From: Mycobacterium sp.
Lineage (GTDB): Bacteria > Actinomycetota > Actinomycetes > Mycobacteriales > Mycobacteriaceae
DNA length: 47,542 bases
Reading direction: 5' to 3'
NCBI GenBank assembly: GCA_035649695.1
Contig: DASRJA010000613.1
Coordinates: 1 to 47,542 of the forward strand
Made by a program: the position numbers and the translations under genes. Of the stretch, positions 23,722-40,285 are shown one piece after another; within the stretch, counting starts at the first letter, position 1; each line of letters begins with the position of its first letter. The notes beneath the pieces were generated by a model, which had not been told where the DNA came from, searched no databases, and saw only the letters and a list, made by a program, of their open reading frames with translations.

Positions 23722-24939
23722 GTGTCGACAGTCTCAAGTCCAGCGGGACAACGCTCCACGGCCCGCGCCCAGATGTTGTCGCGGCTGGCCCATAGTGGCC
23801 GAGATGTCATGTGCTACACCGTCGGCGATGAGCGAAACATCCTGCTCAATCACCCCGACCATGTCGAACACGTGCTTGCCGCGAACCGCGCCAACTACAG
23901 CAAGGACACCGCGGCCAACCGCTACTTCCGCACCGAGATCGCAGACGGGATCCTGACCGCCGACGGCGACGGCTGGCGGCGTCAGCGGACCCTGCTCAAC
24001 CCGGTCTTCCGCGACCGGGCACGGCTGGCGACCGCTGCACGCGAAGCCATCGCCGCCCTCGTCGCGCGGCTCGACAAGCTCGCCGACACGGGCCGCGAGC
24101 TGAACCTGTCCGCCGCGATTGGCGAAGTGACACTGTCGATTACGGTCCGCGCGCTGTTCGGGATGAGCCACGAACCGTTCATCGACCAGTGCATTGCGCT
24201 GGGTGGCGCACTGGACGATGCGAACTCCCTGTTGCCAGGTATGGACGGGGCGGGTCCGCGAGATGGGCTCTACCGGCAACTCCGCGCAGCGCTGTCCGCG
24301 TCGGCCCGCGGCGAGTACGGGCCGGCCCTGGCCGCGCTGGCCGACGACCCCGATCACTCCGGCGAGGCGCTCTACCAACAGCTGGTGACGCTGCTCCTGG
24401 CCGGATTCGAGACGACGGCGAATTCGCTCACGTGGGCGTGGATCCTGTTGATGCAACATCCCGACGTCTACGAGGAGTGGCAGCACAGCCTTGGGACGTC
24501 GGCGGCGCTCACCAAGGCCTTGTTCGACGAAACCCTGCGCCTGTACCCGTCGGCCTGGATCCTCGGACGGCGCGCGCTCAGCGACGATCACGTGGGCGGC
24601 GTCGACATCCCGGCCGGAGCCGCCGTAACGATCAGTCCCTTTCTGCTGCATCGGCATCCGAAGTTCTGGGACGACGCCGAAGCGTTCCGTCCGCACCGCT
24701 TCCTTCCGGGCGGCGCGCGGCCCGCTCACCGTTACGCCTACATCCCGTTCGGCGCCGGACACCGCTACTGCATCGGAGCCACCTACGCCCACGACGAGGC
24801 CGAGATGATCCTCGACGAGCTCGGCCGACGGTTCACCTTCCGATCGGAACACGTCGCCGACGCCCGGCCCGAGCACAAGTTCGTGCTACGCGCCCCTGAC
24901 CCGCTGCGCGTCACCGTCCACCGGAGGAATACGCCATGA
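23722..24939 (+). CDS. Cytochrome P450
   Basis: AGFETT I-helix, ETLR (ExxR), PHRF and FGAGHRYCIG heme-Cys motif. GTG start at 23722 after GGAGG. Confidence 0.95.
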   Translation: MSTVSSPAGQRSTARAQMLSRLAHSGRDVMCYTVGDERNILLNHPDHVEHVLAANRANYSKDTAANRYFRTEIADGILTADGDGWRRQRTLLNPVFRDRARLATAAREAIAALVARLDKLADTGRELNLSAAIGEVTLSITVRALFGMSHEPFIDQCIALGGALDDANSLLPGMDGAGPRDGLYRQLRAALSASARGEYGPALAALADDPDHSGEALYQQLVTLLLAGFETTANSLTWAWILLMQHPDVYEEWQHSLGTSAALTKALFDETLRLYPSAWILGRRALSDDHVGGVDIPAGAAVTISPFLLHRHPKFWDDAEAFRPHRFLPGGARPAHRYAYIPFGAGHRYCIGATYAHDEAEMILDELGRRFTFRSEHVADARPEHKFVLRAPDPLRVTVHRRNTP

Positions 24940-25205
24940 CCATTGCGCCCGCATCGCCAACCGAGTTCGGCGCGGCAGTCTGTGCCCTGATCGCAGAGCA
25001 CACGAACCTGCCAGTGGACTTCATCACACCCGACCGTGCCTTCGACGACCTCCCCCTCGATTCCCTCGGGATGCTCGAACTCATCCTGCTCGCCGAGGCC
25101 ACCTTCGGGATCGTCGCCTTGGATGACGACGGGATCGAAGTGCACACCGTCGGTGACGCGATCACATTCCTCGCATCGAAATTGCCAGTCGCACAGAACG
25201 ATTAG
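24936..25205 (+). CDS. Acyl carrier protein 1
   Basis: 89 aa, acidic, LDSL phosphopantetheine site, TVGDAI C-terminus; ATGA overlap with the P450. Confidence 0.88.
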   Translation: MTIAPASPTEFGAAVCALIAEHTNLPVDFITPDRAFDDLPLDSLGMLELILLAEATFGIVALDDDGIEVHTVGDAITFLASKLPVAQND

Positions 25206-25215
25206 GACACAACGC

Positions 25216-26874
25216 ATGAGCAGCCTCACCGATCAGATGTACGCCAACGCGGCGACCAGCCCGCGCGGGATGATCACCGGAACCTTCGAGGACCCGATCC
25301 GGCGCAGTTGGGGCGAGGTGCACGACGAAGCGCGACGGATGGCGGGCGCACTGTCGAAGATGGGTGTCGAGCCGGGTGCCTCGGTCGCGGTGCTGGCCGG
25401 CGATCCAGCCGACGTCGCCCCGCTCGCTCAGGCGGTCTGGATGCGAGGCGCATCGCTGACCATGCTTGCGCAGCCCACGCCGCGCACCGACCTCGCCATG
25501 TGGTTGGCCGACACGCATCGCGCCGCACGCACCGTACGGGCAGCCCTGACCATCGTGGGCGCACCGTTCACCGAGGCAGCCGAACCTCTGAATGCGGCCG
25601 GACAAGACGTGGTCATGCTCGAGGAGCTTCGGACTGGACCCGCCATCGAACCGCTGCATCCCGACGAGTCGGCGATCGCGATGTACCAGCTGACGTCGGG
25701 GTCCACCGGAACCCCCAAGGCTGTCCAGCTCACCCACGCAAACATCGTCGCCAACTCGAACGCCCTGTTCACGGCGACGGACGGCGATGCGGCCACCGAC
25801 GTGATGGTCAGCTGGCTGCCGCTGTCGCACGACATGGGCATGCTCGCGTTCCTCGCGCTGCCGATGCAGTACGGCGTCGAGCTCGTCGCCTCCAGGCCCG
25901 AGGAGTTCCTGCGCCGGCCGGCGCTGTGGGCGGACCTGATCAGCCGCTACCGCGGAACCATCACCTCAGGACCGAACTTCGCGTACGCGCTGCTCGCCCT
26001 GACCCTCGAACGGGCCGACCCCGGCCGCTTCGATCTGTCCAGCCTGCGCGTGGCGATCAACGGCGCCGAACCCATCGACGCCCGCGACACCCGTCGCCTG
26101 GCCGAGGCGGGTGCACGATTCGGACTGCGTCCCGGGGCGATCACCCCGGCGTACGGGATGGCCGAGGCCACGCTGGCGATCACCTTCGACAACTCACCAC
26201 AGGTCAACGTGGACCGGATCAGTCGCATCGATCTGCAGGAACGCGCGCTGGCCACGCCGGACGCCGGAGCCGACGCGTGCGGGGTGGTCTCGGTGGGTCT
26301 TCCGGTGGCGGGCATGGAGATCCGCGTCGTCGACTACTACTCGCGGCCGCGTCCGCCGCGACACGTCGGGTCGATCGAGGTCCGCGGCGCAGCGGTGTCC
26401 GGCGGATACCTCGCCGACCAGGGGTGGCGCGAGGGGGCCTTCATCCGTGACGGCTGGCTGCACACCGGCGACCTCGGCTACTTCGACGAACACGGCAGGT
26501 TGTACGTCTGCGGCCGGACCAAGGACGTGATCGTCATCGCGGGCAACAACATCTACCCGACCGATGTCGAACGCGCCGCCTGCGCCGTGCCCGGCGTCCG
26601 GGCCGGCAACGCGGTGGCCGTCCGCATCGACGCCGGCGAGTTCCGGGAGGGGTTCGCCGTGCTCGCTGAGTCGAAGCTCGCGGCCGATCCCGTTGAGGCG
26701 GAGCGCATTCGCGCCGAGATCGCCCTTCGTGTCAACCAGGCCGTGGGACCCAACGCACGAGCGGTACTGGTGCTGCCGCCGGGCAGTGTCCCCAAGACGG
26801 GGTCGGGCAAGCTGCAACGCCGCAAGGCCGCCGAATTGTTTGCGCGCCTCGACGCCGAGGCGGTGCCGGCATGA
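25216..26874 (+). CDS. Fatty acyl-AMP ligase 1 (FAAL, MbtM/FadD33-like)
   Basis: LTSGSTGTPK, SWLPLSHDMG, NGAEPI, YGMAEATL, HTGDLG, GRTKDVIVIAGNNIYP and KTGSGKL. Confidence 0.9.
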   Translation: MSSLTDQMYANAATSPRGMITGTFEDPIRRSWGEVHDEARRMAGALSKMGVEPGASVAVLAGDPADVAPLAQAVWMRGASLTMLAQPTPRTDLAMWLADTHRAARTVRAALTIVGAPFTEAAEPLNAAGQDVVMLEELRTGPAIEPLHPDESAIAMYQLTSGSTGTPKAVQLTHANIVANSNALFTATDGDAATDVMVSWLPLSHDMGMLAFLALPMQYGVELVASRPEEFLRRPALWADLISRYRGTITSGPNFAYALLALTLERADPGRFDLSSLRVAINGAEPIDARDTRRLAEAGARFGLRPGAITPAYGMAEATLAITFDNSPQVNVDRISRIDLQERALATPDAGADACGVVSVGLPVAGMEIRVVDYYSRPRPPRHVGSIEVRGAAVSGGYLADQGWREGAFIRDGWLHTGDLGYFDEHGRLYVCGRTKDVIVIAGNNIYPTDVERAACAVPGVRAGNAVAVRIDAGEFREGFAVLAESKLAADPVEAERIRAEIALRVNQAVGPNARAVLVLPPGSVPKTGSGKLQRRKAAELFARLDAEAVPA

Positions 26875-27686
26875 GCCCGAAGGCGACGACGAGTGAGGAT
26901 CGCAGCGAGGAACGAGCGAGGACCGGAGCGAGGAGGAGTCGAGGCATTAGCAAAGCCCCGGCCATCGAGCTCGAGCGGCTGCGGATCGTCCGCGGCGGCA
27001 ACACCGTCATAGACGACGTCACCGTGTCCGTCTCGGAGGGCATCATCACCGGGTTGCTCGGCCCGTCCGGCTGCGGCAAGACCACCCTGATGCGCACCAT
27101 CGTCGGGAACCAGAAGATCACCGCGGGGTCGGCGACGGTGCTCGGCCACGCTGCCGGTGCCAAGAGCCTGCGTCGGCATGTCGGCTACGTGACCCAGTCG
27201 CCGAGCATCTACCGAGACCTCACCACCATCGAGAACGTCCGCTACTTCGCGGCTCTGTACGGCATCGGCATGCAGCGCGTGCACGAGGTCGTCGAGGCCG
27301 TCGGACTGACCGGGCAGAAGACCGATCTGGCCGGCAACCTCTCCGGCGGACAGCAGGGCCGGGTGTCGCTCGCGTGCGCACTCGTCTGTGACCCGGACCT
27401 GCTCATCCTCGACGAGCCGACGGTGGGGCTCGACCCGCTGCTGCGCGTCGAACTGTGGGAACAGTTCGTCGACATGGCCGACCGCGGAAAGACGTTGCTC
27501 ATCTCGAGCCACGCCATGGACGAGGCGCGGCAATGCGCCGAACTGATCCTGATGCGCGACGGCGCCATCCTCGCGCACGCCGAGCCCGAAGCGATTCTGC
27601 GCCAAACCAATTGCCTTGACCTGGAATCGGCCTTCGTGGCACTCGTCCGATCCGAGCTCCAGCCCGTCGAGGAGGTCCGGTCATGA
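26871..27686 (+). CDS. ABC-2 type exporter ATP-binding protein
   Basis: GPSGCGKT, LSGGQ, LILDEPTVGLDP and SSH. Confidence 0.93.
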   Translation: MSPKATTSEDRSEERARTGARRSRGISKAPAIELERLRIVRGGNTVIDDVTVSVSEGIITGLLGPSGCGKTTLMRTIVGNQKITAGSATVLGHAAGAKSLRRHVGYVTQSPSIYRDLTTIENVRYFAALYGIGMQRVHEVVEAVGLTGQKTDLAGNLSGGQQGRVSLACALVCDPDLLILDEPTVGLDPLLRVELWEQFVDMADRGKTLLISSHAMDEARQCAELILMRDGAILAHAEPEAILRQTNCLDLESAFVALVRSELQPVEEVRS

Positions 27687-28438
27687 ACCCGACCACCCAC
27701 TGGGCGACGACCGTCCGAATCCTGACTCAGCTGCGTCGCGACCGGCGCGCGATGTTCATGATCCTGGTGATACCGGCGCTGATCACCGTCCTGTTCTACT
27801 CCACGCTGTCGTTGCAGGGGCCCGGGCCCGACGGCTTGACACCGTATGACCGGCTTGGCATCTTCCAGATCGCCGTCATCCCCTGCGCGGTGATGTTCCC
27901 CATCGCCGCCATCACGATGCGCCGCGAACGCGCAAGCGGCACGCTGGACCGGCTGTTCACCACCCCAATGTCCAAGTTGGACCTGCTGGCCGGATACGGC
28001 ACCGCGTTCTCGCTCGGCGCCGTCGCGCAGGCAGTGATCGTCACGCTCGTCGCCTACCGGGTGACGGACCTGAGCACGGCCGGCAGCCCACTGCTCGTGG
28101 CGATGGTCTGCGTGCTGACCGCCGTGCTCGGAGTCGCCCTCGGGTTGTTTTTCAGTGCGTTCGCCGAAACCGAGTTCCAGGCCGTGCAATTCGCGCCGAT
28201 CGTGCTGGTGCCCCAGCTGTTCCTGGCCGGAGTGTTCATTCCTCGCGACGAAATGCCCGGTTGGCTGCATTCGTTCAGCGACGTCCTCCCGCTCACCTAT
28301 GTCGTCGAGGCGTTGCAGCAGATCAGTGCCAACGCAGAGGCGACCCCCCGCATGTGGCGCGACGTCGGTGTCGTTGTCGCCTTCATCATCGCCGCGGTCC
28401 TCGGCGGCGCCGCGACTCTGCGCCGACAGGAAGCCTGA
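27683..28438 (+). CDS. ABC-2 type exporter permease
   Basis: About six TM helices; RERASGTLDRL and LPLTY. Confidence 0.92.
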   Translation: MNPTTHWATTVRILTQLRRDRRAMFMILVIPALITVLFYSTLSLQGPGPDGLTPYDRLGIFQIAVIPCAVMFPIAAITMRRERASGTLDRLFTTPMSKLDLLAGYGTAFSLGAVAQAVIVTLVAYRVTDLSTAGSPLLVAMVCVLTAVLGVALGLFFSAFAETEFQAVQFAPIVLVPQLFLAGVFIPRDEMPGWLHSFSDVLPLTYVVEALQQISANAEATPRMWRDVGVVVAFIIAAVLGGAATLRRQEA

Positions 28439-28441
28439 GCT

Positions 28442-29233
28442 ATGTACACCTTCGCCCACGACGGCGTCACGTTCACCGTCCAGCCCGCCGAGCAGGGCAG
28501 GCACACCGTGGTGTTCGTCAACGGGCTGTTCGGCGGCGGATGGATATGGGAACCCGTCGTCGCCACGCTGACCGCTCAGGGGTACGGGACCGTCGTCACC
28601 GCCGAACCCCTGGCTGCACACGAGACCGCAGAAGACATTCCCGCACTGCTGCAGAGCATCTCGTTGCTGGTCGACACGCTGCCCGATGCGGCCCCGATCC
28701 TCTGCGGGAACTCCCTCGGCGCGCTGGTGGCGATGGAGTTGGCGGCCGCCGAGCCGTCGCGGTGGGCCGGCGTGATCCTCAGCGGAGCACCTGGGCTGGG
28801 TGACGAGCAGGACGCGGACAGCTTCGGTTCCGCGCTGCGCACCCCGTCACTGCGGCTCGGAGACCTCATCGCCGACCGGCTGATTCACGACAAGGAACTG
28901 ATCACACCCGAACTGGTCGAGCGCTGCACCCAGGCGTTGACGCCACGCATCATGCTTCGCGCCGGGCGGGCGTTGCGCGCCACGCGCGGGTATGACGCGC
29001 GAGGGCTGTTGGGCCGCATCGATTCTCCCGTGCTGCTGATCTGCGGCGCCTGCGACGAGATCAGCTCGCCCGCGAAATGGCGAGACGCTGCCCCGATGTT
29101 CCCCGACGCCGACTACGTCGAGATCGCAGGAGCAGGCCACTCGCCGATGCTCGAGAAGCCGGACGAGTTCTCGGCCCTCGTGACTGCCTGGCTCGACACC
29201 ATTCCTGCGCCGCACCTCTCGGGTACCGGCTAA
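28442..29233 (+). CDS. Alpha/beta hydrolase
   Basis: GNSLG nucleophile, GACDEI (Asp) and GAGHSP (His). Confidence 0.88.
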   Translation: MYTFAHDGVTFTVQPAEQGRHTVVFVNGLFGGGWIWEPVVATLTAQGYGTVVTAEPLAAHETAEDIPALLQSISLLVDTLPDAAPILCGNSLGALVAMELAAAEPSRWAGVILSGAPGLGDEQDADSFGSALRTPSLRLGDLIADRLIHDKELITPELVERCTQALTPRIMLRAGRALRATRGYDARGLLGRIDSPVLLICGACDEISSPAKWRDAAPMFPDADYVEIAGAGHSPMLEKPDEFSALVTAWLDTIPAPHLSGTG

Positions 29234-29262
29234 CCGCAACAGCTTTCACGAAGGAACCGACC

Positions 29263-29526
29263 ATGGATTGCACGCTTTCCGCCTACGACACTCTCGTCGA
29301 TTGGCTGATCGACAGGATCGCCGTCTACCTCGCCACCAGCCCAGCTGCGATCGAGACCGATAAGACGTTCGGAGACTACGGCCTGGACTCGGCCTTCGCG
29401 CTCAATCTGTGCACCGACCTGGAAACCGAACTCGGAATCCTCGTCGAACCCACCATCGCGTGGGACTACCCCACCATCGGTGACATCGCCGGTCATCTCG
29501 CCGAAAGCACCGGGAGGACCCGATGA
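29263..29526 (+). CDS. Acyl carrier protein 2
   Basis: FGDYGLDS and WDYPTI motifs; ATG at 29263 after AAGGA; ATGA overlap with the PKS. Confidence 0.9.
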   Translation: MDCTLSAYDTLVDWLIDRIAVYLATSPAAIETDKTFGDYGLDSAFALNLCTDLETELGILVEPTIAWDYPTIGDIAGHLAESTGRTR

Positions 29527-32483
29527 CTCCGATCGCAAGCCAGATTGCTGTCGTCGGCATGGACTGCCGATTCCCCTGTGCCACAGACATCGACGAGATG
29601 TGGCGGCTGCTAATGGCCGGAGAGGTCGCCAAGAGTGTGGTGCCCGCCGACCGGTGGGACATCGACCGCTTCCACAGCACACAGATACGGCCGGGCACCA
29701 TGAACACCCGGTACGCCCACTTCATCGACGACGCCGACCTGTTCGATCACGAATTCTTCGGTATCTCACCGCTCGAAGCGGCCGCCCTCGACCCGCAGCA
29801 ACGCCTGGTCCTGCAATCCGTTTGGCGCGCATTGGAAGACGCAGCCATCGACCCGCGCGCACTTGCCGGCACCGAGGCAGGTGTGTTCGTGGGCATGATG
29901 CTGAGCGAGTGGGGCGCGCTCAATCTGTTGGACTTTCCATCGCTGACGTCGCAGCGCGGAATCGGCGGTGGACACTCGATGGTCGCAAACCGGGTGTCGT
30001 ACCACCTCAACCTCACCGGGCCGAGCGTCACGGTCGACACGGCGTGCTCATCGTCTCTTACGGCCGTACACCTCGGCTGCCAGGCTTTGGCCTCAGGCGA
30101 CACCGACCTCGTCGTGGCCTCAGGTGTGAACATTCTGCTGACCCCTGCACTGTCCATCTTCTATACCCAGGCCGGGCTGTCCGCACCGGACGGCACCTGT
30201 AAACCGTTCAGCGCCAACGCCGACGGCATCGGCCGCGGAGAGGGTGTCGGCACTGTGGTGCTGCGGCGGCTCGACGACGCGGTCGCCGACCGCCAGCCCA
30301 TCTATTCGGTCATCGCCGGCAGTGCCACCAACCAGGACGGCAAGAGCAGCGGTATCACCGCGCCGAACCGCTGGGCTCAGTCCAAGGTGATGCAGCGCGC
30401 ACTCGATCGCGCGGGCGCGGCCGCCAGCGATGTCACGTTCGTCGAAGCCCATGGCACGGGTACGACGTTGGGCGACATGATCGAAGCGAACGCGCTCGGC
30501 GACCTGCACCGCACCGGCCGCGGCGCCCCGTGCCTCCTCGGCTCAATCAAGGGCAACATCGGGCACGCCGAAGGGGCGGCAGGCATCGCGTCGCTGATCA
30601 AGACCAGCCTCGCGCTGTCGAGGGGGTTGCTTCCCCCGACCGTTGCGGCAGCCGGACCCAACCCGGCCCTACGGCTGGACCAGCAGGGCCTGACGCTGGC
30701 CACCACGGCAGCCGAGCTGGGCGATGGCCCGGTGCTCGCAGGTGTCAGCTCGTTCGGGATCGGCGGCAGCAACGTGCACGTGCTATTGACCTCCCCTCCC
30801 GCCGTCACGGCGGTGCCCGAGGTCCATGACGACGACGAGGTGGGTGTCATCACCGTGTCCGCGCACTCATCGGATGCGTTGCGCCGCAACGCCACTGCGC
30901 TGGCCAACGCCCTCGATGAGAACAACGACGACGCCGTCGCCGCCTTGTGCTACACCAGCAACCAAGTCAAGTCGTCGCTCAAACACCGGTTCGCTGCAGC
31001 GGGCACCCGCAACGAGTTGATCGGTGCCCTGCTCGGTTACGACATGTCCGCGCGCACCGAGAAGTCGCCTCGTCGCGGCGGCAGGCTGCGGATCGGCCTG
31101 CTGTGCACCGGACAGGGTGCCCAGTACCCCGGGATGACTCAGGCGCTCTACCGCACCTGCCCGCCGTACCGTGAGCATCTGACGCGGGCCGCCGCCGCCG
31201 TCGATACCACCTTCGCGGGACCTAATGGATTGCTCACCAACATGTTTCGCGGCGGCGACGTCATCGACACCACCGAGTACGCTCAACCGGCACTGTTCGC
31301 GGTGTCGTATGCCATCGGCGCGGCGCTACTCGACCTCGGTGTCGAGCCGACGTTCCTGATCGGCCACAGCGTGGGCGAATTCGCGGCTGCAGCGCTAGCT
31401 GAGGTCTTGACGCTCGACGAAGCGGCCGGCCTGGTGGTTGCCCGTGGCGCGGTGATGCAGCAACTGCCGAAGGGCGGTGCGATGAGTGCGGTCGACGTCC
31501 CCGCCGAACAGGTTGCGAATCTTGTTGCAGAAGAGCCAACCTGTGGAATCGCCGCTATCAACGGACCGGCCTCGACGGTGGTGTCCGGGCCCGCCGCCGC
31601 TGTCGATCGCATCACCACAGCACTTGCCCGCGGCGGCGCAAAGGTCACGTCACTGCCCGTCTCGCACGCTTTCCATTCGCCCCTCATGGCGCCTGCGCAG
31701 GACGCGTTCCGCGCTATCGCCGGCGCAGTGACACCGCGGAAGGCGACGATCCCGATCATCTCGACCGTGCACGGCACGATCGTCGACGGCACCGACATGG
31801 ACGCCGACTACTGGGCCGCCCAGCTCACGTCGACGGTGCGATTCATGGATGCGATGCGTACCGCCACCACGCAGGCGTCCCCGACCCACCTCGTCGAACT
31901 CGGCCCGCGCACGACCCTGCTGGCGCATGCGCGGCGCGGCGGCATCGACATGGACGTGGCAACCCTCGCGCCCTGCGTCGGGCCCGACGACGACGGCGCC
32001 GGTTTCGCGCGGGTCGTCGCCCGTCTGTACAGCGACGGGCTCACCACCCAGTTCGACCATCTCTACGATGCGGAGTCACGGACTCTGAAACGGTTGCCGC
32101 CCTATGTCTTCGGCGACGGATCCCGGTTCTGGCGCGTACTGGACACAGCGGCGGTCACTGGCTCGGTATCCACTGCGACGTCGGTCGTGGCTACTGAACC
32201 AGGCCCCGCGTCCGAGATAGCCGACGCCGCGCCGCTCGCCTCGCGTATCCGGCAGCTCATCGCCGACATCGGCGGCTACACCGTCGAGCAGATCGATCCC
32301 AACGCGCTCCTCGGCGCGGACCTGGGCTACGACTCCCTGCTGCAGCTTCGCCTCATCGAGTCGATCCGCACCGAGTATCCAGAGCTGCAGGAGGCGCCTG
32401 TCAGCGAATTGTTAAGTGCGATAGAGAATGTCGACGATGTAGTGCGCTACGTCGCCGACCGGTTGGCGGAGGTGGCCCGATGA
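29523..32483 (+). CDS. Single-module type I PKS (KS-AT-ACP)
   Basis: KS: DPQQR, DTACSSS, HGTGT, NIGH. AT: GQGAQ, GHSVG, HAFH (malonyl-type). ACP: LGYDSL. At 986 aa there is no room for KR, DH, ER or TE. Confidence 0.95.
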   Translation: MTPIASQIAVVGMDCRFPCATDIDEMWRLLMAGEVAKSVVPADRWDIDRFHSTQIRPGTMNTRYAHFIDDADLFDHEFFGISPLEAAALDPQQRLVLQSVWRALEDAAIDPRALAGTEAGVFVGMMLSEWGALNLLDFPSLTSQRGIGGGHSMVANRVSYHLNLTGPSVTVDTACSSSLTAVHLGCQALASGDTDLVVASGVNILLTPALSIFYTQAGLSAPDGTCKPFSANADGIGRGEGVGTVVLRRLDDAVADRQPIYSVIAGSATNQDGKSSGITAPNRWAQSKVMQRALDRAGAAASDVTFVEAHGTGTTLGDMIEANALGDLHRTGRGAPCLLGSIKGNIGHAEGAAGIASLIKTSLALSRGLLPPTVAAAGPNPALRLDQQGLTLATTAAELGDGPVLAGVSSFGIGGSNVHVLLTSPPAVTAVPEVHDDDEVGVITVSAHSSDALRRNATALANALDENNDDAVAALCYTSNQVKSSLKHRFAAAGTRNELIGALLGYDMSARTEKSPRRGGRLRIGLLCTGQGAQYPGMTQALYRTCPPYREHLTRAAAAVDTTFAGPNGLLTNMFRGGDVIDTTEYAQPALFAVSYAIGAALLDLGVEPTFLIGHSVGEFAAAALAEVLTLDEAAGLVVARGAVMQQLPKGGAMSAVDVPAEQVANLVAEEPTCGIAAINGPASTVVSGPAAAVDRITTALARGGAKVTSLPVSHAFHSPLMAPAQDAFRAIAGAVTPRKATIPIISTVHGTIVDGTDMDADYWAAQLTSTVRFMDAMRTATTQASPTHLVELGPRTTLLAHARRGGIDMDVATLAPCVGPDDDGAGFARVVARLYSDGLTTQFDHLYDAESRTLKRLPPYVFGDGSRFWRVLDTAAVTGSVSTATSVVATEPGPASEIADAAPLASRIRQLIADIGGYTVEQIDPNALLGADLGYDSLLQLRLIESIRTEYPELQEAPVSELLSAIENVDDVVRYVADRLAEVAR

Positions 32484-34159
32484 CCATCGTCGATATCGTT
32501 GCGGCCCGCGCAACGTCGGAATCGCTGGCATACGTCTATCTCGCAGACGGCACCCCGGCCAGTGAGCTGCGCTGGTCGTTCGCGGACACGGCGAGCCGCA
32601 CCCGCGCCTATGCCGCGCACCTCCGCGATCGAGGTATCAGTGCCGGACACCGCGTCGTGCTCGCGATCAATCCGAGCCTCGACTACATCGCGGCCCTGTA
32701 CGGCATCATGTGGCTGGGCGCCATCCCCGTCCCGTGCTTCCCGCCCCTGCGCACAAAGGAACTGGACCGCTTCGGAGCGATCACGGTCGACTGCGCGCCG
32801 ACGGCCATCGTCATCGACGAGATGTACCGCGAGCCGATCGAGGCTCTGCGCCGTCGCCTCGAGTCCGTCGGCCTGGAGCCGACGGTCGTCTATGTCGAGC
32901 AGGTCGACGACGCAGGCGATGACTCCCCGCCCGTACCCACTGCTGCGCGTGACATCGCGCTGATCCAATACACCTCCGGCTCGACCGGGACGCCGAAGGG
33001 TGTCTGCCTCACCCACGCCAACCTGGTCAGTAACTGCGAGGCGCTCGGTCGCAACATGGGTCACGACCCGGACCGGATCGGGTTCTCCTGGCTGCCGCCC
33101 TATCACGACATGGGACTGATGGGCACGATCCTGGTGTCGATGTTCCAGGGTGTCCCGCTGGTCACGATGTCGCCGCTGCACTTCGTGCAGTCGCCCCGCC
33201 GCTGGCTCGAGGCCATCACCCAGTACAAGGTGACGATCGCCGTGGGACCGAACTTCTCCCTCGACATGTGCTCCGATGTGTTGGCCGACGGCGACAACAC
33301 CGACCTGGATCTCTCCACACTCGAGCGGCTGTACTGCGGGGCCGAGCCGATCAGCATCGATACGCTCGCACGGTTCGAGAAAGCCGCGGCGCCGCTGGGT
33401 TTCAACCTGGACGCCTTGGTGCCGTGCTACGGGATGGCGGAGACGACGCTGTACGTGTCGGGGAAGAGCCCCGGCCGCAACTATCACACCGAGCCCTCAC
33501 CCGAACCGTCCGCGCTGCCGCGGGACGTCGTCAGCTGCGGGAAGGTCGACCCCGAGCACACCGTTCGGATCGTCGAGCCCACCAGTCTCGAGGCTTTGAG
33601 CGACGGACGCATAGGTGAAATCTGGGTGGCAGGCCCAAGCGTCGCGGCGGGCTACCACGATCGGCATTACCTGACACGCAGGGTATTTGGCGCGCGAATC
33701 GCCGGCGAGCTGGGTGGGTACTTGCGGACGGGTGATCTCGGCTTCGTCCGATCCGGTGAGCTGTTCGTCACGGGGCGCATCAAAGACCTGATCATCGTCA
33801 ACGGGCGCAATATCTATCCGCAGGACGTCGAGGCCAACGTTGGACGCGCAGACCCCGCCGTCCGTATCGCGGTGGCCTTCTCGATTCCCGGTGACAACTC
33901 CGAACAGCTGTGTGTCATCGCCGAAGTCGGCCAGCCGCAGGTGACCGCACAGGTGCACGCTCGGTTGGTCGATGCGATACGGGCCAGCGTGACATCGGAA
34001 TTCGGCATCCGACCGCATGTCCACATCGGACCGAAGCGCACGGTGCCGACCACGACCAGCGGGAAGGTACGCCGTCAGGAGACCCGGCGGATGTTCCTGG
34101 CCGACGAACTACTTTCCGTCCCAATCGATTCACCAGCCACACAGGAGTGCACGGCATGA
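32480..34159 (+). CDS. Fatty acyl-AMP ligase 2 (CayA/PgnD/JamA-like position)
   Basis: YTSGSTGTPKG, SWLPPYHDMGL, CGAEPI, CYGMAETTL, RTGDLG, GRIKDLIIVNGRNIYPQD and TTSGKV. Confidence 0.92.
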   Translation: MTIVDIVAARATSESLAYVYLADGTPASELRWSFADTASRTRAYAAHLRDRGISAGHRVVLAINPSLDYIAALYGIMWLGAIPVPCFPPLRTKELDRFGAITVDCAPTAIVIDEMYREPIEALRRRLESVGLEPTVVYVEQVDDAGDDSPPVPTAARDIALIQYTSGSTGTPKGVCLTHANLVSNCEALGRNMGHDPDRIGFSWLPPYHDMGLMGTILVSMFQGVPLVTMSPLHFVQSPRRWLEAITQYKVTIAVGPNFSLDMCSDVLADGDNTDLDLSTLERLYCGAEPISIDTLARFEKAAAPLGFNLDALVPCYGMAETTLYVSGKSPGRNYHTEPSPEPSALPRDVVSCGKVDPEHTVRIVEPTSLEALSDGRIGEIWVAGPSVAAGYHDRHYLTRRVFGARIAGELGGYLRTGDLGFVRSGELFVTGRIKDLIIVNGRNIYPQDVEANVGRADPAVRIAVAFSIPGDNSEQLCVIAEVGQPQVTAQVHARLVDAIRASVTSEFGIRPHVHIGPKRTVPTTTSGKVRRQETRRMFLADELLSVPIDSPATQECTA

Positions 34160-35097
34160 GTCAGCTGGCATCCACACGACACCCGGCACCGAACGAGCAA
34201 GCACCGCTGCCTGAACGCGACGTCCTGGCATCGCGCCTCGCCTACCTCACGGTCGGCATCCCCACCTTGGGAACGGTCGCCGCCGTCGGCTACGCGATCA
34301 GCGACGGGCTGTGGCTGTCCGACGTCCTGGTGTTCCTTGCGATGTACCTGATCACAGGGCTGGGGGTGGAGGGGGGCCTGCACCGCTACTTCACGCATCG
34401 CTCGTTCGTGGCGTCCGAACCAGTGAAGGTGGTCCTCGCGGTCGCAGGCTCGATGGCCGCGCAGGGTCCCGTGATCTTCTGGGTGGCGAATCACCGGCTA
34501 CACCACGCCTTCGCCGACACCGATCGCGATCCGCATTCCCCCCAACCGCAGGGACCAGGGTGGTGGGGCCGGGTAAAGGGACTGTGGCACGGCCACATTG
34601 GCTGGCTGTTCACGGTGAACAAGATCGACTGGAGTCGTCACACTCGCGACTGGTTGCAGGACCGCCGCGTGATGAAGATCAACGGGCACTACTTCACCGT
34701 GGTTCTGGCGGGCATCGTCATTCCGGGACTGGTCGGTGGCCTTGCCACTCAATCGATGCACGGCTTCGTCGGAGGCATCCTCTGGGGCGGCTTCGTTCGG
34801 ATCTTCGCACTCGACCATGCGACCTGGGTGGTGAACTCCCTCGGCCACACAATCGGAAACCGCGAGTTCCACATCCGCGACCAGAGCCGCAATATCGGAG
34901 TTCTCGCGCCACCCACCATGGGCGGGTCGTGGCACAACAACCATCACGCCCGGCCCAGCCTCGCGCAGACCCGCCGACACTGGTGGCAGCTCGATCTCGT
35001 GGGGGATTTCATCGGGCTGCTCGACCGCGTCGGACTCGTCAGCAACGTCCGCTACCCCAACACGCAAGAAGAGAACCATGATGATCGAAACAGCTAG
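34156..35097 (+). CDS. Membrane delta9-like desaturase/acetylenase 1
   Basis: His boxes HRYFTH, HRLHH, NSLGH and HNNHH, plus DPHSP. ATG at 34156 overlaps the FAAL stop. Confidence 0.92.
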   Translation: MSQLASTRHPAPNEQAPLPERDVLASRLAYLTVGIPTLGTVAAVGYAISDGLWLSDVLVFLAMYLITGLGVEGGLHRYFTHRSFVASEPVKVVLAVAGSMAAQGPVIFWVANHRLHHAFADTDRDPHSPQPQGPGWWGRVKGLWHGHIGWLFTVNKIDWSRHTRDWLQDRRVMKINGHYFTVVLAGIVIPGLVGGLATQSMHGFVGGILWGGFVRIFALDHATWVVNSLGHTIGNREFHIRDQSRNIGVLAPPTMGGSWHNNHHARPSLAQTRRHWWQLDLVGDFIGLLDRVGLVSNVRYPNTQEENHDDRNS

Positions 35098-36088
35098 TCC
35101 AACAACGGCTTCGGATTCCAGACAAGAGTCGCTGGCCCGGGCAATCGTGCAGTTGAACCCGAAGAGCGCGCGCGCCAAGCGCGTCGTCGCCGCGGTCACC
35201 GTTGGGATACCCGCGGTCGGCTTCGCCATTGCCGTGTACCTGGGCGTTGCCGGCACGGCCACTGCGTTGGACTACCTACTCTTCGCGGTGTTCTACGTGA
35301 TTCAGATGTTCGGCGTCAGCATCGGGTTTCATCGCTACCTCGCGCACAACTCGTTCAAGACCTCACCGTTCTTCGAGGGCGTACTGATGGTCACCGGGTC
35401 GATGGCCCTCGAAGGTCCAGTCCTGTTTTGGGTGAGCACCCACCGCCGCCACCACCGCTACTCCGACGAACTGGGCGATCCGCACTCACCGAACCTCAGT
35501 GGCAGCGGACTGGCCGGGAAGCTCAAAGGTCTTTGGTACGCCCATATTCCGTGGATGTTCAGCGACCAGGAGTCCCGAGTGACCGTGTTCGCTCCCGATG
35601 TGGTGCGGGATCGGCGCCTCTACTTCTACAACCGGACGTATCCCGTCTGGGCGTTGACGAGCCTGCTGCTCCCCGCGCTGTTGGGGTTCACGATCAGGGG
35701 CACGGCCGCAGCGGCGTTCTCCGGTTTCATCTTCGGTGGACTGGCGCGGGTGTTCGTCGCCAACCAGGCGGCCTGGTGCGTGGGGTCCGTCAGCCACATG
35801 ATCGGTTCGCGACCGTTCGCGACCAGAGATGACAGCGCCAACAACTGGCCGGTGGCCATCCTCACGTTCGGCGAGGGCCTGCAGAACAATCACCATGCCT
35901 TCCCGGGCGCCTACCGTCACGCAATGCGTTGGTGGGAACCAGATCTCAGCGGGTGGGTGATCGCCATACTCGCGAAGGCCGGCATCGTCTGGAGCCTCAA
36001 GATGCCGGACCGACAGAAGATCAATAGCCGTCTGCGACGCAATCGCCCGTCGGTGAAGTCCACCGACGAACTTAGGAAAGAAGGTTGA
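35078..36088 (+). CDS. Membrane delta9-like desaturase/acetylenase 2
   Basis: HRYLAH, HRRHH, DPHSP, GSVSH and GEGLQNNHH. Confidence 0.92.
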   Translation: MMIETASPTTASDSRQESLARAIVQLNPKSARAKRVVAAVTVGIPAVGFAIAVYLGVAGTATALDYLLFAVFYVIQMFGVSIGFHRYLAHNSFKTSPFFEGVLMVTGSMALEGPVLFWVSTHRRHHRYSDELGDPHSPNLSGSGLAGKLKGLWYAHIPWMFSDQESRVTVFAPDVVRDRRLYFYNRTYPVWALTSLLLPALLGFTIRGTAAAAFSGFIFGGLARVFVANQAAWCVGSVSHMIGSRPFATRDDSANNWPVAILTFGEGLQNNHHAFPGAYRHAMRWWEPDLSGWVIAILAKAGIVWSLKMPDRQKINSRLRRNRPSVKSTDELRKEG

Positions 36089-36091
36089 ACA

Positions 36092-36382
36092 ATGTTCGGA
36101 CGCAATAGAACCGCCACGATAGACGGCCCGCTCACACACGAGAAGCTACGGTCGTGGTTGATCGCGGAGCTGGCGCGGATGGTGAAGATCGACCAGGCAC
36201 AGGTCGACACCGCCAAGCCGTTCCAGGCCTACGGCCTGGACTCGCGTGCCGCCGTTCAAGTTTCGGGGGCTTTGGAGAAGGTTGTGGAGCGTCGGCTCTC
36301 GCCAGGAATCCTCTTCGACCACGAGACGATCGACGAGCTCGCGGATCACCTCGTGGGTGAACTGCAGCTCGAGCGCGGCTGA
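36092..36382 (+). CDS. Acyl carrier protein 3
   Basis: LRSWL, FQAYGLDS and FDHETIDELA. Confidence 0.9.
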   Translation: MFGRNRTATIDGPLTHEKLRSWLIAELARMVKIDQAQVDTAKPFQAYGLDSRAAVQVSGALEKVVERRLSPGILFDHETIDELADHLVGELQLERG

Positions 36383-36398
36383 GCACAGGAGATGCGTC

Positions 36399-37484
36399 AT
36401 GACGAAATTCGTCACCCTCACCGATCCTGACCCACGGTTCACGGAGTTCATCGAGAAGAGCAACACCCTCGAAGGCGCGAAGCTCGCTGCCGCCATCCCG
36501 AAGGAGTACGTGCAACCCTCACTGGCACGCGGGCTCCTCGGCCTTGCGGCCAGCCTGTCGGTGTATGTCGGCGCCATCGTCGCGATGGCCGTTCTCGATC
36601 GGTGGTACCTGGTAGTTCCCCTGGCTATCTTGGCGGGTCTGGGCGGGTGGGGCCTGCACTGCATCGCACACGAGTGCGGGCACGGATCATTCTCCCGAAA
36701 TCGCCGGTTGAACTTCGTGATCGGGCACCTGACCCTTGTGCATCTGCTGTATCCGTTTCACGCGTGGCGTCATGTTCACAACCTGCATCACGCCCACACC
36801 AACAGCCTGGAGCTCGACACCGACTGGGCGCCCATTCCCGAGGCGGTCTACCACCGGATGGCGTTGCGGGACCGAATGATCTACATCAGTGTGCGCACGT
36901 GGGCGGTGTGGGGCGGGACCATCCACCACTGGCTGCAATCGGGTCTGCGCCCGTCCTACTTCCCGAAGCGAGAGATGCGCCGGGACGCGCGCCGGTCGAT
37001 GGCGTTCGTTGCCGTCGTCGGAGGCGCCTACCTCGCCGCGTTGACGTACTTCACCGGCTGGCAAGGTCTACTGCTGTACTTCGTCGCGCCGTGGTTCGCC
37101 ACCCACGTGTGGTTCAGTATCACGACACTGATGCATCACAGCGCCGAGGACATCCCATACCTGACGTCCGAGCACTGGACGCGCAATGCCAGCAAGTTGC
37201 TCGTGACGACGGATTTCGTGTATCCGCGGTGGCTGCTGTTCCTCACCCACAACATCTCGCTGCATACCGCACATCACGTGTCGCCCGCCGTGCCGTTCTA
37301 CCACCTCGGCAAGGCGCAGGCTGCGCTGCTGCAGGCGTACCCCGAGATGATGCGGGTGGAGAAGGCGAGTGCGCGCAAACTATGGAACATCCTGCGCAAC
37401 TGCAGGTTCTACGATCCGGTCTCCGGGCTGTATTCGACGCGCCCGATGCGTCGGGTCGTCCCCCAGCAGAAGGAATCAGCGTGA
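36399..37484 (+). CDS. Membrane delta12/omega6-like desaturase/acetylenase 3
   Basis: HECGH, HNLHH and HTAHH His boxes, plus VPFYHL. ATG at 36399 after AGGAG. Confidence 0.92.
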   Translation: MTKFVTLTDPDPRFTEFIEKSNTLEGAKLAAAIPKEYVQPSLARGLLGLAASLSVYVGAIVAMAVLDRWYLVVPLAILAGLGGWGLHCIAHECGHGSFSRNRRLNFVIGHLTLVHLLYPFHAWRHVHNLHHAHTNSLELDTDWAPIPEAVYHRMALRDRMIYISVRTWAVWGGTIHHWLQSGLRPSYFPKREMRRDARRSMAFVAVVGGAYLAALTYFTGWQGLLLYFVAPWFATHVWFSITTLMHHSAEDIPYLTSEHWTRNASKLLVTTDFVYPRWLLFLTHNISLHTAHHVSPAVPFYHLGKAQAALLQAYPEMMRVEKASARKLWNILRNCRFYDPVSGLYSTRPMRRVVPQQKESA

Positions 37485-38317
37485 GCGCCGGATTGTTTGT
37501 GGCCCAGGCCTTGACACGCGCACATCGGATCGCACCGCGGGCTGCTGGGTACGTCTGGACGAGCATCTTCACCAACACCCGCGGGCTCGGCACCGCGCCG
37601 AACGACCTGTGCCCCTTGGGCGCCAGCCGCGTGGAACTGACGGGCGTGCCGAGGGTCGCGGCGGTGTATGTGTGGGGCAGCGCGGAGCCGACGGTTCTTG
37701 CGCTGCACGGATGGGGAGCCGACAGCACCACCATGTCAAGCGTGGTGGCTGCGGCAGCCGACAGCGGCGAGTCGGCGGTGTGCTTCGACGCACCTGGGCA
37801 CGGAGCCTCGCCGGGAACACAAGCGACGATGAGGGAGTATTCAGACGCTACTCTCGCTGTCCTGCAACGGTTTCCGAGCATCACCACCATCGTCGCCCAC
37901 TCATTTGCGGCGATCGCCGCAGTCTCGGCCGTCGCAGCGGCCGCCGGCAACAGCGTGCGATTTCTGCTCCTGCTCGCTCCGGCGTGCTCACTGTCGGACG
38001 TTCTCGAACGATGGGCCGCTCATCGGGATCTGCCACCGGCGGTGGTCGAGCAGATTCGTCGTGAACTACGGCGCCGCGACGGCATGGAGGTATCTCATTG
38101 GGATGTCAGAACACTCGGTCTTCCGGCGTCGGTCCGAGTTCAGATCCTGCACGATCCGGCGGACGCCTTGGTGCCAGTGAGCGACTCGTACCGGATCGCG
38201 GCCAGCATCTCGGCGGAGATCCAAGCGACTATGCCAGGCGTTGGCCACCACCGGGTCATCTCCTGCGACGAGATGCGACGGGCTTTGACTGCGCGGGCGA
38301 CCGCTTCCGATCGTTGA
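37481..38317 (+). CDS. Alpha/beta hydrolase, probable thioesterase of the polyyne core
   Basis: LHGWG, FDAPGHG, AHSFA (Ser), HDPAD (Asp) and GHHR (His); GTGA overlap with desaturase 3. Confidence 0.85.
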   Translation: MSAGLFVAQALTRAHRIAPRAAGYVWTSIFTNTRGLGTAPNDLCPLGASRVELTGVPRVAAVYVWGSAEPTVLALHGWGADSTTMSSVVAAAADSGESAVCFDAPGHGASPGTQATMREYSDATLAVLQRFPSITTIVAHSFAAIAAVSAVAAAAGNSVRFLLLLAPACSLSDVLERWAAHRDLPPAVVEQIRRELRRRDGMEVSHWDVRTLGLPASVRVQILHDPADALVPVSDSYRIAASISAEIQATMPGVGHHRVISCDEMRRALTARATASDR

Positions 38318-38552: not shown

Positions 38553-39117
38553 TTGACGAGCGGGTTGAGAACACCATTGGGGCCGGCCTCGGCGACCCTG
38601 ATCCTCGGTGGCGATGCCCAGACCCTGTCCTGGTCGTTCGTGGCGACCGACTTTCCTTTCCTGGCCGCGTCGGGCAGCGCGCAAGCCAAGGCGATCTCGG
38701 CTGCCACCGGGAACAAGGATCTGTTCTCGGCCACCGTGCTCAAGGTGTCGCATCACGCGTCGAAGCACGGCGTCAATCTGGAACTCGTCGAACGGATCCA
38801 CCCTGCGGTGACGCTGGTGTCGTCCACCGCAAGCGGCACGAAGTACGGGTTCCCCCACACCGTGTCGCAGGAAGCCATCCGGGAGGCGCTCGATCCGGTC
38901 GCCAGCAAGCTCAATCCGGCCACCGGGCTGCCTAAAGACCACAAGTCCGATGCCGAACTGCGCATCTTTCTACACCAGCGATACCACCACGGGACCGGGC
39001 GGCCCCGATGCTGGATCCTTCGCCCTATTGCTGCGCGGCGAGCGTCGCGAGCTCTGGCGCTTCGGCGATGCTCCCAGCCAATCGGTCGACCTCAGCAGTG
39101 CCAGGCTGTGGACGTGA
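38553..39117 (+). pseudogene. 5'-truncated, frameshifted ComEC/Rec2-like MBL-fold fragment
   Basis: LILGGDA and LKVSHHASKHG..YGFPH motifs without the N-terminal HxHxDH. An apparent extra base near 38966-38970 (ATCTTTCTAC) shifts the frame; the other frame reads YTSDTTT..LWRFGD..LWT* to 39117. Confidence 0.6.
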
Positions 39118-39147
39118 AGCCCGACCCGCGCTGAGTCCGTCGCCCGG

Positions 39148-40167
39148 TCAGCGGAAGCGGACGTCCAACGTCGCCAGACCGAAGATCTTCTTGCCGTCGG
39201 ACTTCGCCGAGACGATGACAACCCCGGAGCGGGTCTCAGGGTCCAGCGACTTGATCCGGCCGCCGAACTCGATGTCCGCGCCCCCGGTGGCCGACACGAT
39301 CGCGGGCGCGGACAGCCGCACCGCGTAGCGGGTAACCGCACCGGGATCACCCGACCACGCGGAGGCGAAGCCGGCACCCAACCCCATGGTGAGCATTCCG
39401 TGGGCGATCACATCGGGCAGCCCGGCCAGCTTCGCGATGGCCTCGTCCCAGTGAATCGGGTTGGCGTCGCCGGCCACGCCGGCGTAGTTCACCAGGTCGC
39501 CGCGGGACAGTCGGGTGTGGTGCACCGGTAGCTCGTCGCCGACCTTCACGTCATCGAACGACGGCGTGCCCGGCGTGCGGGCGGTGCTGTCGGCGATCCG
39601 CACCTCGCCCTCGGGGCGCACCGTCTTGTGGTACTCGGATTCGCCGACCCCGAAGATGTCGACGTCGTGCATCATCGCGTTGTGCACGGCTGTCTTGATC
39701 TCCGGATTGAGATCCTCGGCGGTGACGCCGACGACGGTGGTGTGCAGGGTGTGCACCCGCTCGCCGGCGGTGTCGGTGAAGGTGTTGGTGACGGTGATCA
39801 GGTCTCTGCCGGCGATGCGGCGCACTGACGTCAGTTCGACGTCGACGTGCAGTTCGTCGCCGGCCACGATCGGGCGGTGCTGCTCGAAGACCTCTTCGGT
39901 CTGCATGTAGGTGTCGTAACCGACGACCACCTGTTCGAACATGTGGCGATTGCAGGTCATGCCTGGAGTCGACGTAAACGTCAGCGGCGCCATGAGGTCC
40001 GAATATCCCAGCTCAGCGGCGGCGGCGACATCCCAGTGCGCGGGGTGATAGTCCTGCACGGCACGGGCGTACTCGCGTACCTTCTCGCGGCCGACCAGGT
40101 AGGTGCCGTCCATCTGGTAGTAGTGGCCGACCCGCGCTTCAAGCAGCGATGCTTCTGGTGCGGTCAT
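39148..40167 (-). CDS. Fused HadA/HadB-like (3R)-hydroxyacyl-ACP dehydratase (MSMEG_6754/MAB_4780-like)
   Basis: Double hotdog fold: GREKVREYARAV..HPAH..APLTF (HadA-like) and YAGVAGDANPIHWD..IAHGM (HadB hydratase-2 motif). Confidence 0.9.
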   Translation of the reverse strand: MTAPEASLLEARVGHYYQMDGTYLVGREKVREYARAVQDYHPAHWDVAAAAELGYSDLMAPLTFTSTPGMTCNRHMFEQVVVGYDTYMQTEEVFEQHRPIVAGDELHVDVELTSVRRIAGRDLITVTNTFTDTAGERVHTLHTTVVGVTAEDLNPEIKTAVHNAMMHDVDIFGVGESEYHKTVRPEGEVRIADSTARTPGTPSFDDVKVGDELPVHHTRLSRGDLVNYAGVAGDANPIHWDEAIAKLAGLPDVIAHGMLTMGLGAGFASAWSGDPGAVTRYAVRLSAPAIVSATGGADIEFGGRIKSLDPETRSGVVIVSAKSDGKKIFGLATLDVRFR

Positions 40168-40285
40168 GAATTCGCCCTACTTTTCTATCGGCTGGTTCGC
40201 TGAGGCCGACCAAGCACCCTAACGCGCCGGCATTTGTCGCCGGGATTGGCGCTCGATGGCTCGAAGCACTAATTTTCCGGAGGTG

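What the first reader, a model, noticed from the sequence alone, without database searches (positions are those of the whole stretch)
32480..38317. Complete polyyne-type core cassette in a mycobacterial genome
Seen: FAAL, delta9-like desaturase, delta9-like desaturase, ACP, delta12-like desaturase and thioesterase, coupled in one run. Established: this is the order of the bacterial polyyne core (caryoynencin cayA-F, protegencin pgnD-I; related collimonin, cepacin and massilin clusters), which makes conjugated terminal-alkyne fatty acids. Characterised producers are Proteobacteria. Actinobacterial homologous clusters have, as I recall, appeared in genome surveys, but I know of no mycobacterial product. 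Inference: this strain can make a polyyne lipid.
Basis: partly seen in the sequence, partly recalled or inferred. Interest (0 to 1): 0.9.

Follow-up and report, generated by a model that had tools for sequence, protein, structure and literature searches.

The report
Mycobacterial polyyne cluster with polyketide add-on
A soil mycobacterium carries the six genes that other bacteria use to build fatty acids with chains of triple bonds, joined to eight extra lipid-tailoring and export genes, so it likely makes a still unknown triple-bond lipid; such mycobacterial clusters were already listed in genome surveys, but we found no report of their product.

Summary
Confirmed. 32480-38317 holds FAAL, two Δ9-type desaturases, ACP, a Δ12-type desaturase and a thioesterase, intact and coupled. 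All three desaturases and the FAAL group with polyyne-cluster enzymes, not with housekeeping desaturases. This is the six-gene set shown sufficient for protegencin; the usual rubredoxin gene is missing.

The module's hydrolase and P450 were found in 6 of about 400 related genomes, exactly those with the closest cores, and stay linked across an inversion. A second FAAL flanks 17 of 19 mycobacterial cores and 0 of 61 others.

It is not a first sighting. Mycobacterial polyyne clusters are in published surveys, and M. rhodesiae NBB3 with the same 14 genes is in a 2022 supplement. No product or discussion of the module was found in print.

Best reading: the polyyne acid is re-activated, extended, oxidised and exported; untested. 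Verdict: new variant of a known kind.

The parts
23773..24939 (+). Cytochrome P450 (start codon uncertain; the ORF is open from 23692)
   Evidence: Pfam p450; ETLR and FGAGHRYCIG heme motifs; 73-96% orthologues only in the 6 module-bearing relatives
24936..25205 (+).
   Evidence: LDSL serine motif; 58-96% conserved in relatives; annotated acyl carrier protein MycrhN_0268 at the same position in M. rhodesiae NBB3
25216..26874 (+). Second fatty acyl-AMP ligase (FAAL1), PRK07768 family
   Evidence: NCBIfam NF005850 713 bits over cut-off 572; best PDB matches are FAAL-type adenylation enzymes; far from the polyyne FAAL clade
26871..27686 (+). ABC transporter ATPase
   Evidence: Pfam ABC_tran
27683..28438 (+). 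ABC-2 type permease (DrrB-like exporter)
   Evidence: Pfam ABC2_membrane; TIGR00025 just under its cut-off
28442..29233 (+). Alpha/beta hydrolase; candidate release enzyme or acyltransferase of the PKS module
   Evidence: Pfam Abhydrolase_6; GNSLG serine and His233; no paralogue in the genome at 1e-10; 75-90% orthologues only in module-bearing relatives
29263..29526 (+). Stand-alone ACP1, overlapping the PKS start by 4 nt
   Evidence: Pfam PP-binding; GLDS motif
29523..32483 (+). Type I PKS module KS-AT-ACP with no reductive domain, overlapping the core FAAL start by 4 nt
   Evidence: Pfam; KS Cys-His-His, AT GHSVG and HAFH, ACP GYDSL intact; 73% to the M. rhodesiae NBB3 PKS
32480..34159 (+). 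Core FAAL (CayA/PgnD position)
   Evidence: Inside the polyyne FAAL clade, support 95; 41% to the pgn-type locus L146
34156..35097 (+). Desaturase 1 (CayB/PgnE position)
   Evidence: His boxes at 76, 113, 260; clade of first desaturases, support 99; 48% to L146
35078..36088 (+). Desaturase 2 (CayC/PgnF position)
   Evidence: His boxes at 85, 122 and QNNHH at 269; clade of second desaturases, support 100; 52% to L146
36092..36382 (+). Core ACP (CayD/PgnG position)
   Evidence: Pfam PP-binding; GLDS motif; 58% to Burkholderia latens and Collimonas loci
36399..37484 (+). Delta12-type desaturase 3 (CayE/PgnH N-terminal position)
   Evidence: 52% to the P. protegens didomain protein P0123, its best full-length match among 1.84 billion representatives; polyyne clade apart from 16 outgroups, support 100
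37481..38317 (+). Thioesterase (CayF/PgnH C-terminal position)
   Evidence: HGWG, Ser, Asp and His columns conserved with pgn-, cepacin- and collimonin-type loci; 37% to L146
21177..23585 (+). Possible regulators: LuxR-type response regulator, receiver-like protein, histidine kinase (not core)
   Evidence: Pfam for the regulator and kinase; kept beside the cluster in G140, G404 and G113:C8, not in G153 or G205

Best explanation
The six flagged genes are the second half of a 14-gene coupled cluster (23773-38317) whose core likely builds a fatty acid with conjugated triple bonds, and whose extra genes likely re-activate, extend, oxidise and export it. Steps: (1) the core FAAL would load a fatty acid on the core ACP, the three desaturases would introduce the triple bonds and the thioesterase would release the acid (shown for Cay/Pgn orthologues, inferred here). 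(2) Electrons would come in trans, probably from the host's rubredoxin pair (inferred). (3) FAAL1 would reload the released acid on ACP1 or ACP0; the KS-AT-ACP module would add a malonyl unit without reduction; the P450 would oxidise the chain; the hydrolase would release or transfer it; the ABC pair would export it (inferred from domain logic and co-inheritance only).
For: Orthology of FAAL and all three desaturases to polyyne clusters and intact catalytic motifs. cayABCDEF or pgnDEFGH alone gave protegencin in a foreign host (PMC9828172). All 13 junctions lie between -20 and +29 nt, 7 of them 4-nt overlaps. Close orthologues of the hydrolase (7 of 401 genomes) and P450 (7 of 400) occur in G000 and the six genomes with the closest core desaturase, and in no genome without the core. 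The link survives an inversion (G153, G205; M. rhodesiae NBB3) and differing flanks. All 14 genes have dN/dS 0.02-0.36, with similar dS in both halves. A second FAAL lies beside 17 of 19 mycobacterial-clade cores and 0 of 61 others, from two unrelated FAAL families. 5 of 5 relatives tested have two rubredoxins elsewhere.
Against: No product, expression or enzyme data. The module carriers form one subclade, so co-occurrence reflects a single acquisition. G116 has a core with no second FAAL in 20 kb. A cousin of the module (P450, hydrolase, ACP, FAAL; 37-50%) exists without the core in G129. Why a released acid would need a second ligase is unexplained, and the order of steps is not shown. No rubredoxin was found in this assembly (92% complete, 806 contigs). 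The Mycobacterium/Nocardia first desaturase has a long stem branch (0.97), so its chemistry may have shifted. No Cay or Mas sequence was obtained for direct comparison.
Confidence: 0.45

Rival explanations
1. The core makes a free protegencin- or massilin-like polyyne acid, perhaps hydroxylated by the P450 and exported by the ABC pair, while FAAL1, the two ACPs, the PKS and the hydrolase make a separate lipid that merely shares the locus.
For: The core keeps its own thioesterase with an intact triad. Characterised polyynes are released free (PMC9828172), and P450 tailoring of a polyyne is known (CayG, PMC9322674). A module cousin exists without the core (G129). In G153, G205 and NBB3 the halves are divergent units.
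Against: Close module orthologues were never found without the core in about 400 genomes. Here the halves are fused into one run. No MasL-like thiolase gene lies beside any of 19 mycobacterial cores, although it is also missing from many proteobacterial clusters.
Confidence: 0.27
2. The module works upstream or in parallel: it builds or hydroxylates a second acyl chain, which either becomes the substrate of the core FAAL or is joined to the polyyne chain by the hydrolase acting as an acyltransferase.
For: Three stand-alone ACPs and two FAALs allow two chains; P450 and ACP0 are adjacent in every module copy that has them. G280 adds two acyl-CoA dehydrogenase genes inside the module and G153 a further thioesterase, which suits work on a separate chain.
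Against: The PKS has no reductive domain, so it cannot supply an ordinary acyl chain. The other mycobacterial subclade manages with a single FadD21/28-type FAAL placed directly after the thioesterase, which fits re-activation better.
Confidence: 0.15
3. The mycobacterial triad has drifted and makes only polyenes or a single ene-yne for a membrane or envelope lipid.
For: Long stem branches of the Mycobacterium/Nocardia enzymes (0.97 for desaturase 1, 0.5 for desaturase 2). Loss of the linked rubredoxin in all mycobacterial loci. No product has been tied to any actinobacterial cluster (PMC8406139, as of 2021).
Against: All three desaturases are kept in order with intact His boxes under purifying selection. 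The clades with characterised products on either side of the tree (pgn, cepacin, collimonin types) all make polyynes.
Confidence: 0.12
4. These are ordinary housekeeping desaturases that happen to be adjacent.
For: Database labels call them acyl-CoA or omega-6 desaturases.
Against: No significant similarity to the genome's DesA3-type proteins; separate from ordinary Delta9 and Delta12-type outgroups; present in only 20 of 400 genus genomes.
Confidence: 0.01

Closest known systems
Bacterial polyyne core cassette: pgn (protegencin), cay (caryoynencin), ccn (cepacin), col (collimonin), mas (massilin)
   Same: Gene set and order FAAL-FAD-FAD-ACP-FAD-TE; 37-52% identity to a pgn-type locus and 42-58% to a Burkholderia latens locus; same clades in four trees.
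   Different: No linked rubredoxin and no MasL-like thiolase; desaturase 3 and thioesterase are separate genes (fused in PgnH); fused to an eight-gene P450/FAAL/ABC/PKS module not described for the characterised clusters in the papers read.
Mycolicibacterium rhodesiae NBB3 MycrhN_0261-0274 (uncharacterised; listed in Supplementary Data 2 of PMC9098870)
   Same: The same 14 gene functions in the same internal order of each half; PKS 73% identical.
   Different: The two halves are divergent in NBB3 and co-linear here; different chromosomal neighbours. The paper's main text does not mention Mycobacterium.
Mycobacterium cookii JCM 12404 cluster and the larger mycobacterial subclade (core followed by a FadD21/28-type FAAL)
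   Same: Same six-gene core, no rubredoxin, second FAAL attached.
   Different: The second FAAL is of another family and lies after the thioesterase; no P450/ABC/KS-AT-ACP module; in G391 it is followed by a Pks2/Mas-type PKS.
JamABC terminal-alkyne starter cassette (jamaicamide)
   Same: FAAL, desaturase and ACP make an alkyne chain associated with a PKS (PMC9828172, PMC8406139): the logic proposed here.
   Different: One desaturase and one alkyne; from recall, direct hand-over to the PKS without release. Here there are three desaturases, a thioesterase and a second FAAL.

Membership tests
Bacterial polyyne core cassette | FAAL, 2 FAD, ACP, FAD, hydrolase/TE in this order (Lin consensus; Kim minimal set) | tested here: met
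Bacterial polyyne core cassette | FAAL and desaturases fall in the polyyne clades | tested here: met
   Quick IQ-TREE trees, SH-aLRT 95-100. References were pgn-, cepacin- and collimonin-type loci; no Cay or Mas sequence was obtained.
Bacterial polyyne core cassette | Intact HXXHH/QXXHH boxes in all three desaturases | tested here: met
Bacterial polyyne core cassette | Thioesterase Ser-Asp-His triad and ACP serine | tested here: met
   the nucleophile elbow reads AHSFA where pgn- and cepacin-type loci read AHSLG
Seven-gene polyyne cassette (Mullins 2021) | Linked rubredoxin gene | tested here: not met
   Absent from the window and from 19 of 19 mycobacterial-clade loci, present in 54 of 61 others. 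Mullins lists two Mycobacteriaceae as the same exception, and Kim shows it is not strictly required.
Bacterial polyyne core cassette | Makes a conjugated terminal-alkyne fatty acid | not testable with these tools
   Needs chemistry; no product found in print
Housekeeping DesA3-type or ordinary Delta9/Delta12 desaturases | Sequence grouping with these enzymes | tested here: not met
Alkyne-starter PKS hybrid (JamABC-like) | Active KS-AT-ACP module physically tied to the alkyne cassette | tested here: met
   Motifs intact, 4-nt overlap with the core FAAL, co-inherited
Alkyne-starter PKS hybrid (JamABC-like) | The alkyne chain is the substrate of the PKS | not testable with these tools
   Inference only

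The most novel reading that the evidence does not exclude
Mycobacteria have twice, independently, wired the polyyne core to a second FAAL so that the reactive polyyne acid is not left free but fed into polyketide-type lipid synthesis. This cluster would then make a PKS-extended polyyne, a mycobacterial lipid with a natural click handle, and would be the first actinobacterial polyyne cluster tied to a product.
Probability: 0.3. Interest if true: 0.8.

Novelty: new variant of a known kind. Interest (0 to 1): 0.48.

Why it matters
As of 2021 no actinobacterial polyyne had been tied to a gene cluster (PMC8406139), and nine searches found no later case for mycobacteria. The locus defines a 14-gene unit also present in a cultured, fully sequenced strain (M. 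rhodesiae NBB3), so the question can be tested directly. If the PKS module acts on the polyyne chain, it adds chain extension to a family whose known members are released as tailored free acids, and gives a genetically encoded alkyne tag for mycobacterial lipids. The rhizosphere and soil occurrence would fit a role against fungi or oomycetes, as for other polyynes (inference). If the module is unrelated, this is one more member of a clade already seen in surveys.

Tried and rejected
Expression: no RNA holder was listed among 24 runs; this is no evidence either way. Contigs of 4 DNA runs were laid: one contig of X2 (32148-32990) bridges the PKS/FAAL junction, but X2 may belong to the source campaign; the X8 contig ends too close to count. 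Cay and Mas references: a 150-genome family search around Burkholderia latens returned only two genomes already held, so they were not compared directly. The first desaturase-3 tree had outgroups too distant to root and was replaced. All trees are quick-mode SH-aLRT without bootstrap; the careful search did not finish. Rows were chosen by me: 39 core loci, 26, 20, and frameshifted or short hits were dropped by a coverage filter. The promoter/terminator scan was uninformative (0 promoters; 11 terminators against 7.5 expected). PDB searches gave only generic matches for the thioesterase, P450 and hydrolase. Distant P450 relatives in G354 and G219 are not in similar clusters. Recent transfer was rejected: GC3 0.74-0.87 lies within the genome's 5-95% range of 0.74-0.89. 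Searches scored only 6 and 4 candidates per genome, and G273 and G547 were limited or not scored, so tallies are floors. Loci and genomes come from one collection and overlap, so their counts are not added. No structure or complex prediction was run. Earlier scan notes: none on this locus; four loosely related cassettes did not bear on it.
Full report
OBSERVATION. The six genes are present as described, on the + strand and without internal stops: FAAL 32480-34159, desaturase 1 34156-35097, desaturase 2 35078-36088, ACP 36092-36382, desaturase 3 36399-37484 and an alpha/beta hydrolase 37481-38317. Pfam and NCBIfam support the labels. Desaturase 1 has only a weak NCBIfam hit, but all three desaturases keep their His boxes, the hydrolase keeps HGWG, Ser, Asp and His, and the ACP keeps its serine. 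The host is mycobacterial: the window has an mmpS/mmpL pair and the closest named relatives are Mycobacterium.

ORTHOLOGY. The best full-length match of desaturase 3 among 1.84 billion representatives is P0123, a Pseudomonas protegens desaturase-hydrolase didomain protein (52%, 426 bits). I call it PgnH by inference from the didomain description in PMC8406139. Three unnamed full-length proteins follow at 40-50%, and ordinary omega-6-type proteins at 36% or less. A metagenome locus 97% identical to P0123 (L146) has the same order, with 41, 48, 52, 43, 51 and 37% identity to the six proteins. A Burkholderia latens locus gives 44, 52, 55, 58, 58 and 42%; another strain of that species makes cepacin (PMC10485841, Table 1). 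In quick trees, desaturase 1 lies among first desaturases of polyyne-type loci (support 99) and desaturase 2 among second desaturases (100), apart from 11 outgroups. The FAAL lies in the polyyne FAAL clade (95). Desaturase 3 is separated from 16 outgroups (100). The genome's two full-length DesA3-type proteins (label recalled) show no significant similarity. No Cay or Mas sequence could be obtained.

COMPLETENESS. Kim 2022 (PMC9828172; parts 1-2 of 3 read) obtained a small protegencin peak from cayABCDEF alone and more with a rubredoxin or ferritin-like donor, so the six genes meet the minimal set. The seven-gene definition of Mullins 2021 is not met. No rubredoxin lies in the window or in any of the 19 mycobacterial-clade loci among the 80 (defined by 68% or more identity in desaturase 3), against 54 of the 61 others. 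None was found in this assembly (92% complete, 806 contigs). Five of 5 relatives tested have a rubredoxin pair elsewhere; in G205 it follows a gene that looks like alkB (label recalled).

Eight coupled genes precede the core: P450, ACP0, a PRK07768-family FAAL, an ABC ATPase and permease, an alpha/beta hydrolase, ACP1 and a KS-AT-ACP module whose stop overlaps the core FAAL start. All 13 junctions are between -20 and +29 nt, and 7 are 4-nt overlaps. The PKS keeps its KS triad, AT serine and ACP serine; its HAFH motif indicates malonyl (recalled rule), and it has no reductive domain.

CO-INHERITANCE. Desaturase 3 was found in 20 of 400 genus genomes, counting this one. The module's hydrolase matched 8 of 401 genomes: 7 at 75% or more and G129 at 38%. 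The P450 matched 10 of 400: the same 7 at 73% or more and three at 40-44%. The six relatives are exactly the six closest cores. The 14 genes are co-linear in G140 and G404, partly so in G113 (which has a second module copy), divergent in G153 and G205, and on separate contigs in G280. Flanking genes differ between genomes. dN/dS is 0.02-0.36 for all 14 genes in 4 comparisons, with similar dS in both halves. Against this, the carriers form one subclade, so this is one acquisition retained, not many.

A CONVERGENT HINT. A second FAAL lies beside 17 of the 19 mycobacterial-clade cores and none of the 61 others; the two misses are short contigs, and several of the 61 are truncated too. Five carry the FAAL1 type. 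Twelve carry a FadD21/28-type FAAL directly after the thioesterase (2 were classified), followed in G391 by a Pks2/Mas-type PKS. The two types are far apart in the tree. G116 has neither. No thiolase gene of the MasL type lies beside any of the 19, against 18 of the 61.

MECHANISM. Shown for orthologues: loading on the ACP, desaturation by the triad, release by the thioesterase. Inferred here: the same chemistry (about 0.8); electrons supplied in trans; the module acting on the same molecule (about 0.6); and the order re-activation, one unreduced malonyl extension, oxidation, release and export. The overall reading gets 0.45. Rivals: free polyyne acid with an unrelated module (0.27), module upstream or two chains joined (0.15), alkenes only (0.12), housekeeping (0.01). 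Chain length, number of triple bonds and final structure cannot be predicted. The long stem of the mycobacterial first desaturase (0.97) warns that they may differ from known products.

WHAT IS IN PRINT. Mullins 2021 (PMC8406139; parts 1-3 of 6 read, supplements only listed) describes an Actinobacteria clade, two Mycobacteriaceae lacking rubredoxin, and no actinobacterial product tied to a cluster. The Lin preprint (10.1101/2021.03.30.437786; passages, supplements closed) names an uncharacterised Mycobacterium plus Nocardia group. Hotter 2021 (PMC8379975; passages) cites Ross 2014, which I did not see, for a Mycobacterium orthologue. Supplementary Data 2 of Lin 2022 (PMC9098870; one section, passages and rows of file 4 read; one picture file unreadable, Supplementary Fig. 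23 not seen) lists M. rhodesiae NBB3 with the same 14 genes and M. cookii with core plus fadD28; its main text does not mention Mycobacterium. PMC9322674, PMC10485841 and PMC13003075 were read in passages. Nine searches found no mycobacterial product and no discussion of the module; the library lacks most subscription journals.

HABITAT. Of 24 runs listed, the 7 holding at least half the words are rhizosphere metagenomes of one year, possibly one campaign including the source; most others are soil.

VERDICT. Its presence in mycobacteria is already known, so 0.9 is too high. What is new is the 14-gene boundary, the conserved PKS module and the repeated recruitment of a second FAAL. New variant of a known kind; interest 0.48.

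Noticed in passing
G000:C234:1-1876 (- strand): A second polyyne-clade FAAL (65%) and the first 65 codons of a desaturase 1 run off the contig end. It groups with the other mycobacterial subclade, so it is either a second cluster cut by the assembly or a contaminating contig; the remaining genes were not found.
   Followed up: partly
G000:C503:228-8101: A separate hydrolase-FAAL-ACP-PKS (1397 aa)-thioesterase-like run; the PKS is 49% identical to the window's PKS over the KS-AT part.
   Followed up: no
L176:2862-6271 (G280) and L129:1814-2560 (G153): Module variants: two acyl-CoA dehydrogenase genes inserted between the hydrolase and ACP1 in G280, and an extra thioesterase after the PKS in G153.
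   Followed up: partly
L179:1116-19966 (G391): The core runs into a FadD21/28-type FAAL and a 2103-aa Pks2/Mas-type PKS, facing an ABC transporter and more PKS genes: a candidate polyyne envelope lipid locus.
   Followed up: partly
L178:8511-17225 (G129): Distant cousin of the module (P450, FAD enzyme, hydrolase, ACP, FAAL, then an MmpL-like ORF) without a polyyne core.
   Followed up: partly
L070:5287-6069; L018:11316-12131; L083, L084, L085, L086, L088, L092, L137, L139, L141, L145: A 4HBT-type acyl-CoA thioesterase gene sits just upstream of the core FAAL in most actinobacterial clusters but is absent from the module-bearing subclade and the window.
   Followed up: no
L177 and L120 (G113); L145 (G235): G113 has two copies of the module, on different contigs, both with frameshifts; the G235 core is frameshifted in several genes. 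Sequencing error was not excluded.
   Followed up: no
L069:14809-21041; L025; L066: An Actinomadura scrupuli core without rubredoxin has PKS and ACP genes downstream; polyyne-type cores also occur in Xenorhabdus sp. and Alcaligenes aquatilis.
   Followed up: no
window 38553-39134: Short ORF with weak similarity to ComEC/Avs1a metallo-beta-lactamase folds right after the cluster; probably a gene remnant.
   Followed up: no
window 9885-11024, 40256-41281, 12772-16115, 39148-40167: A weak GH5 and a clear GH6 glycoside hydrolase, an mmpS/mmpL pair, and a double MaoC-type dehydratase gene flank the region.
   Followed up: no
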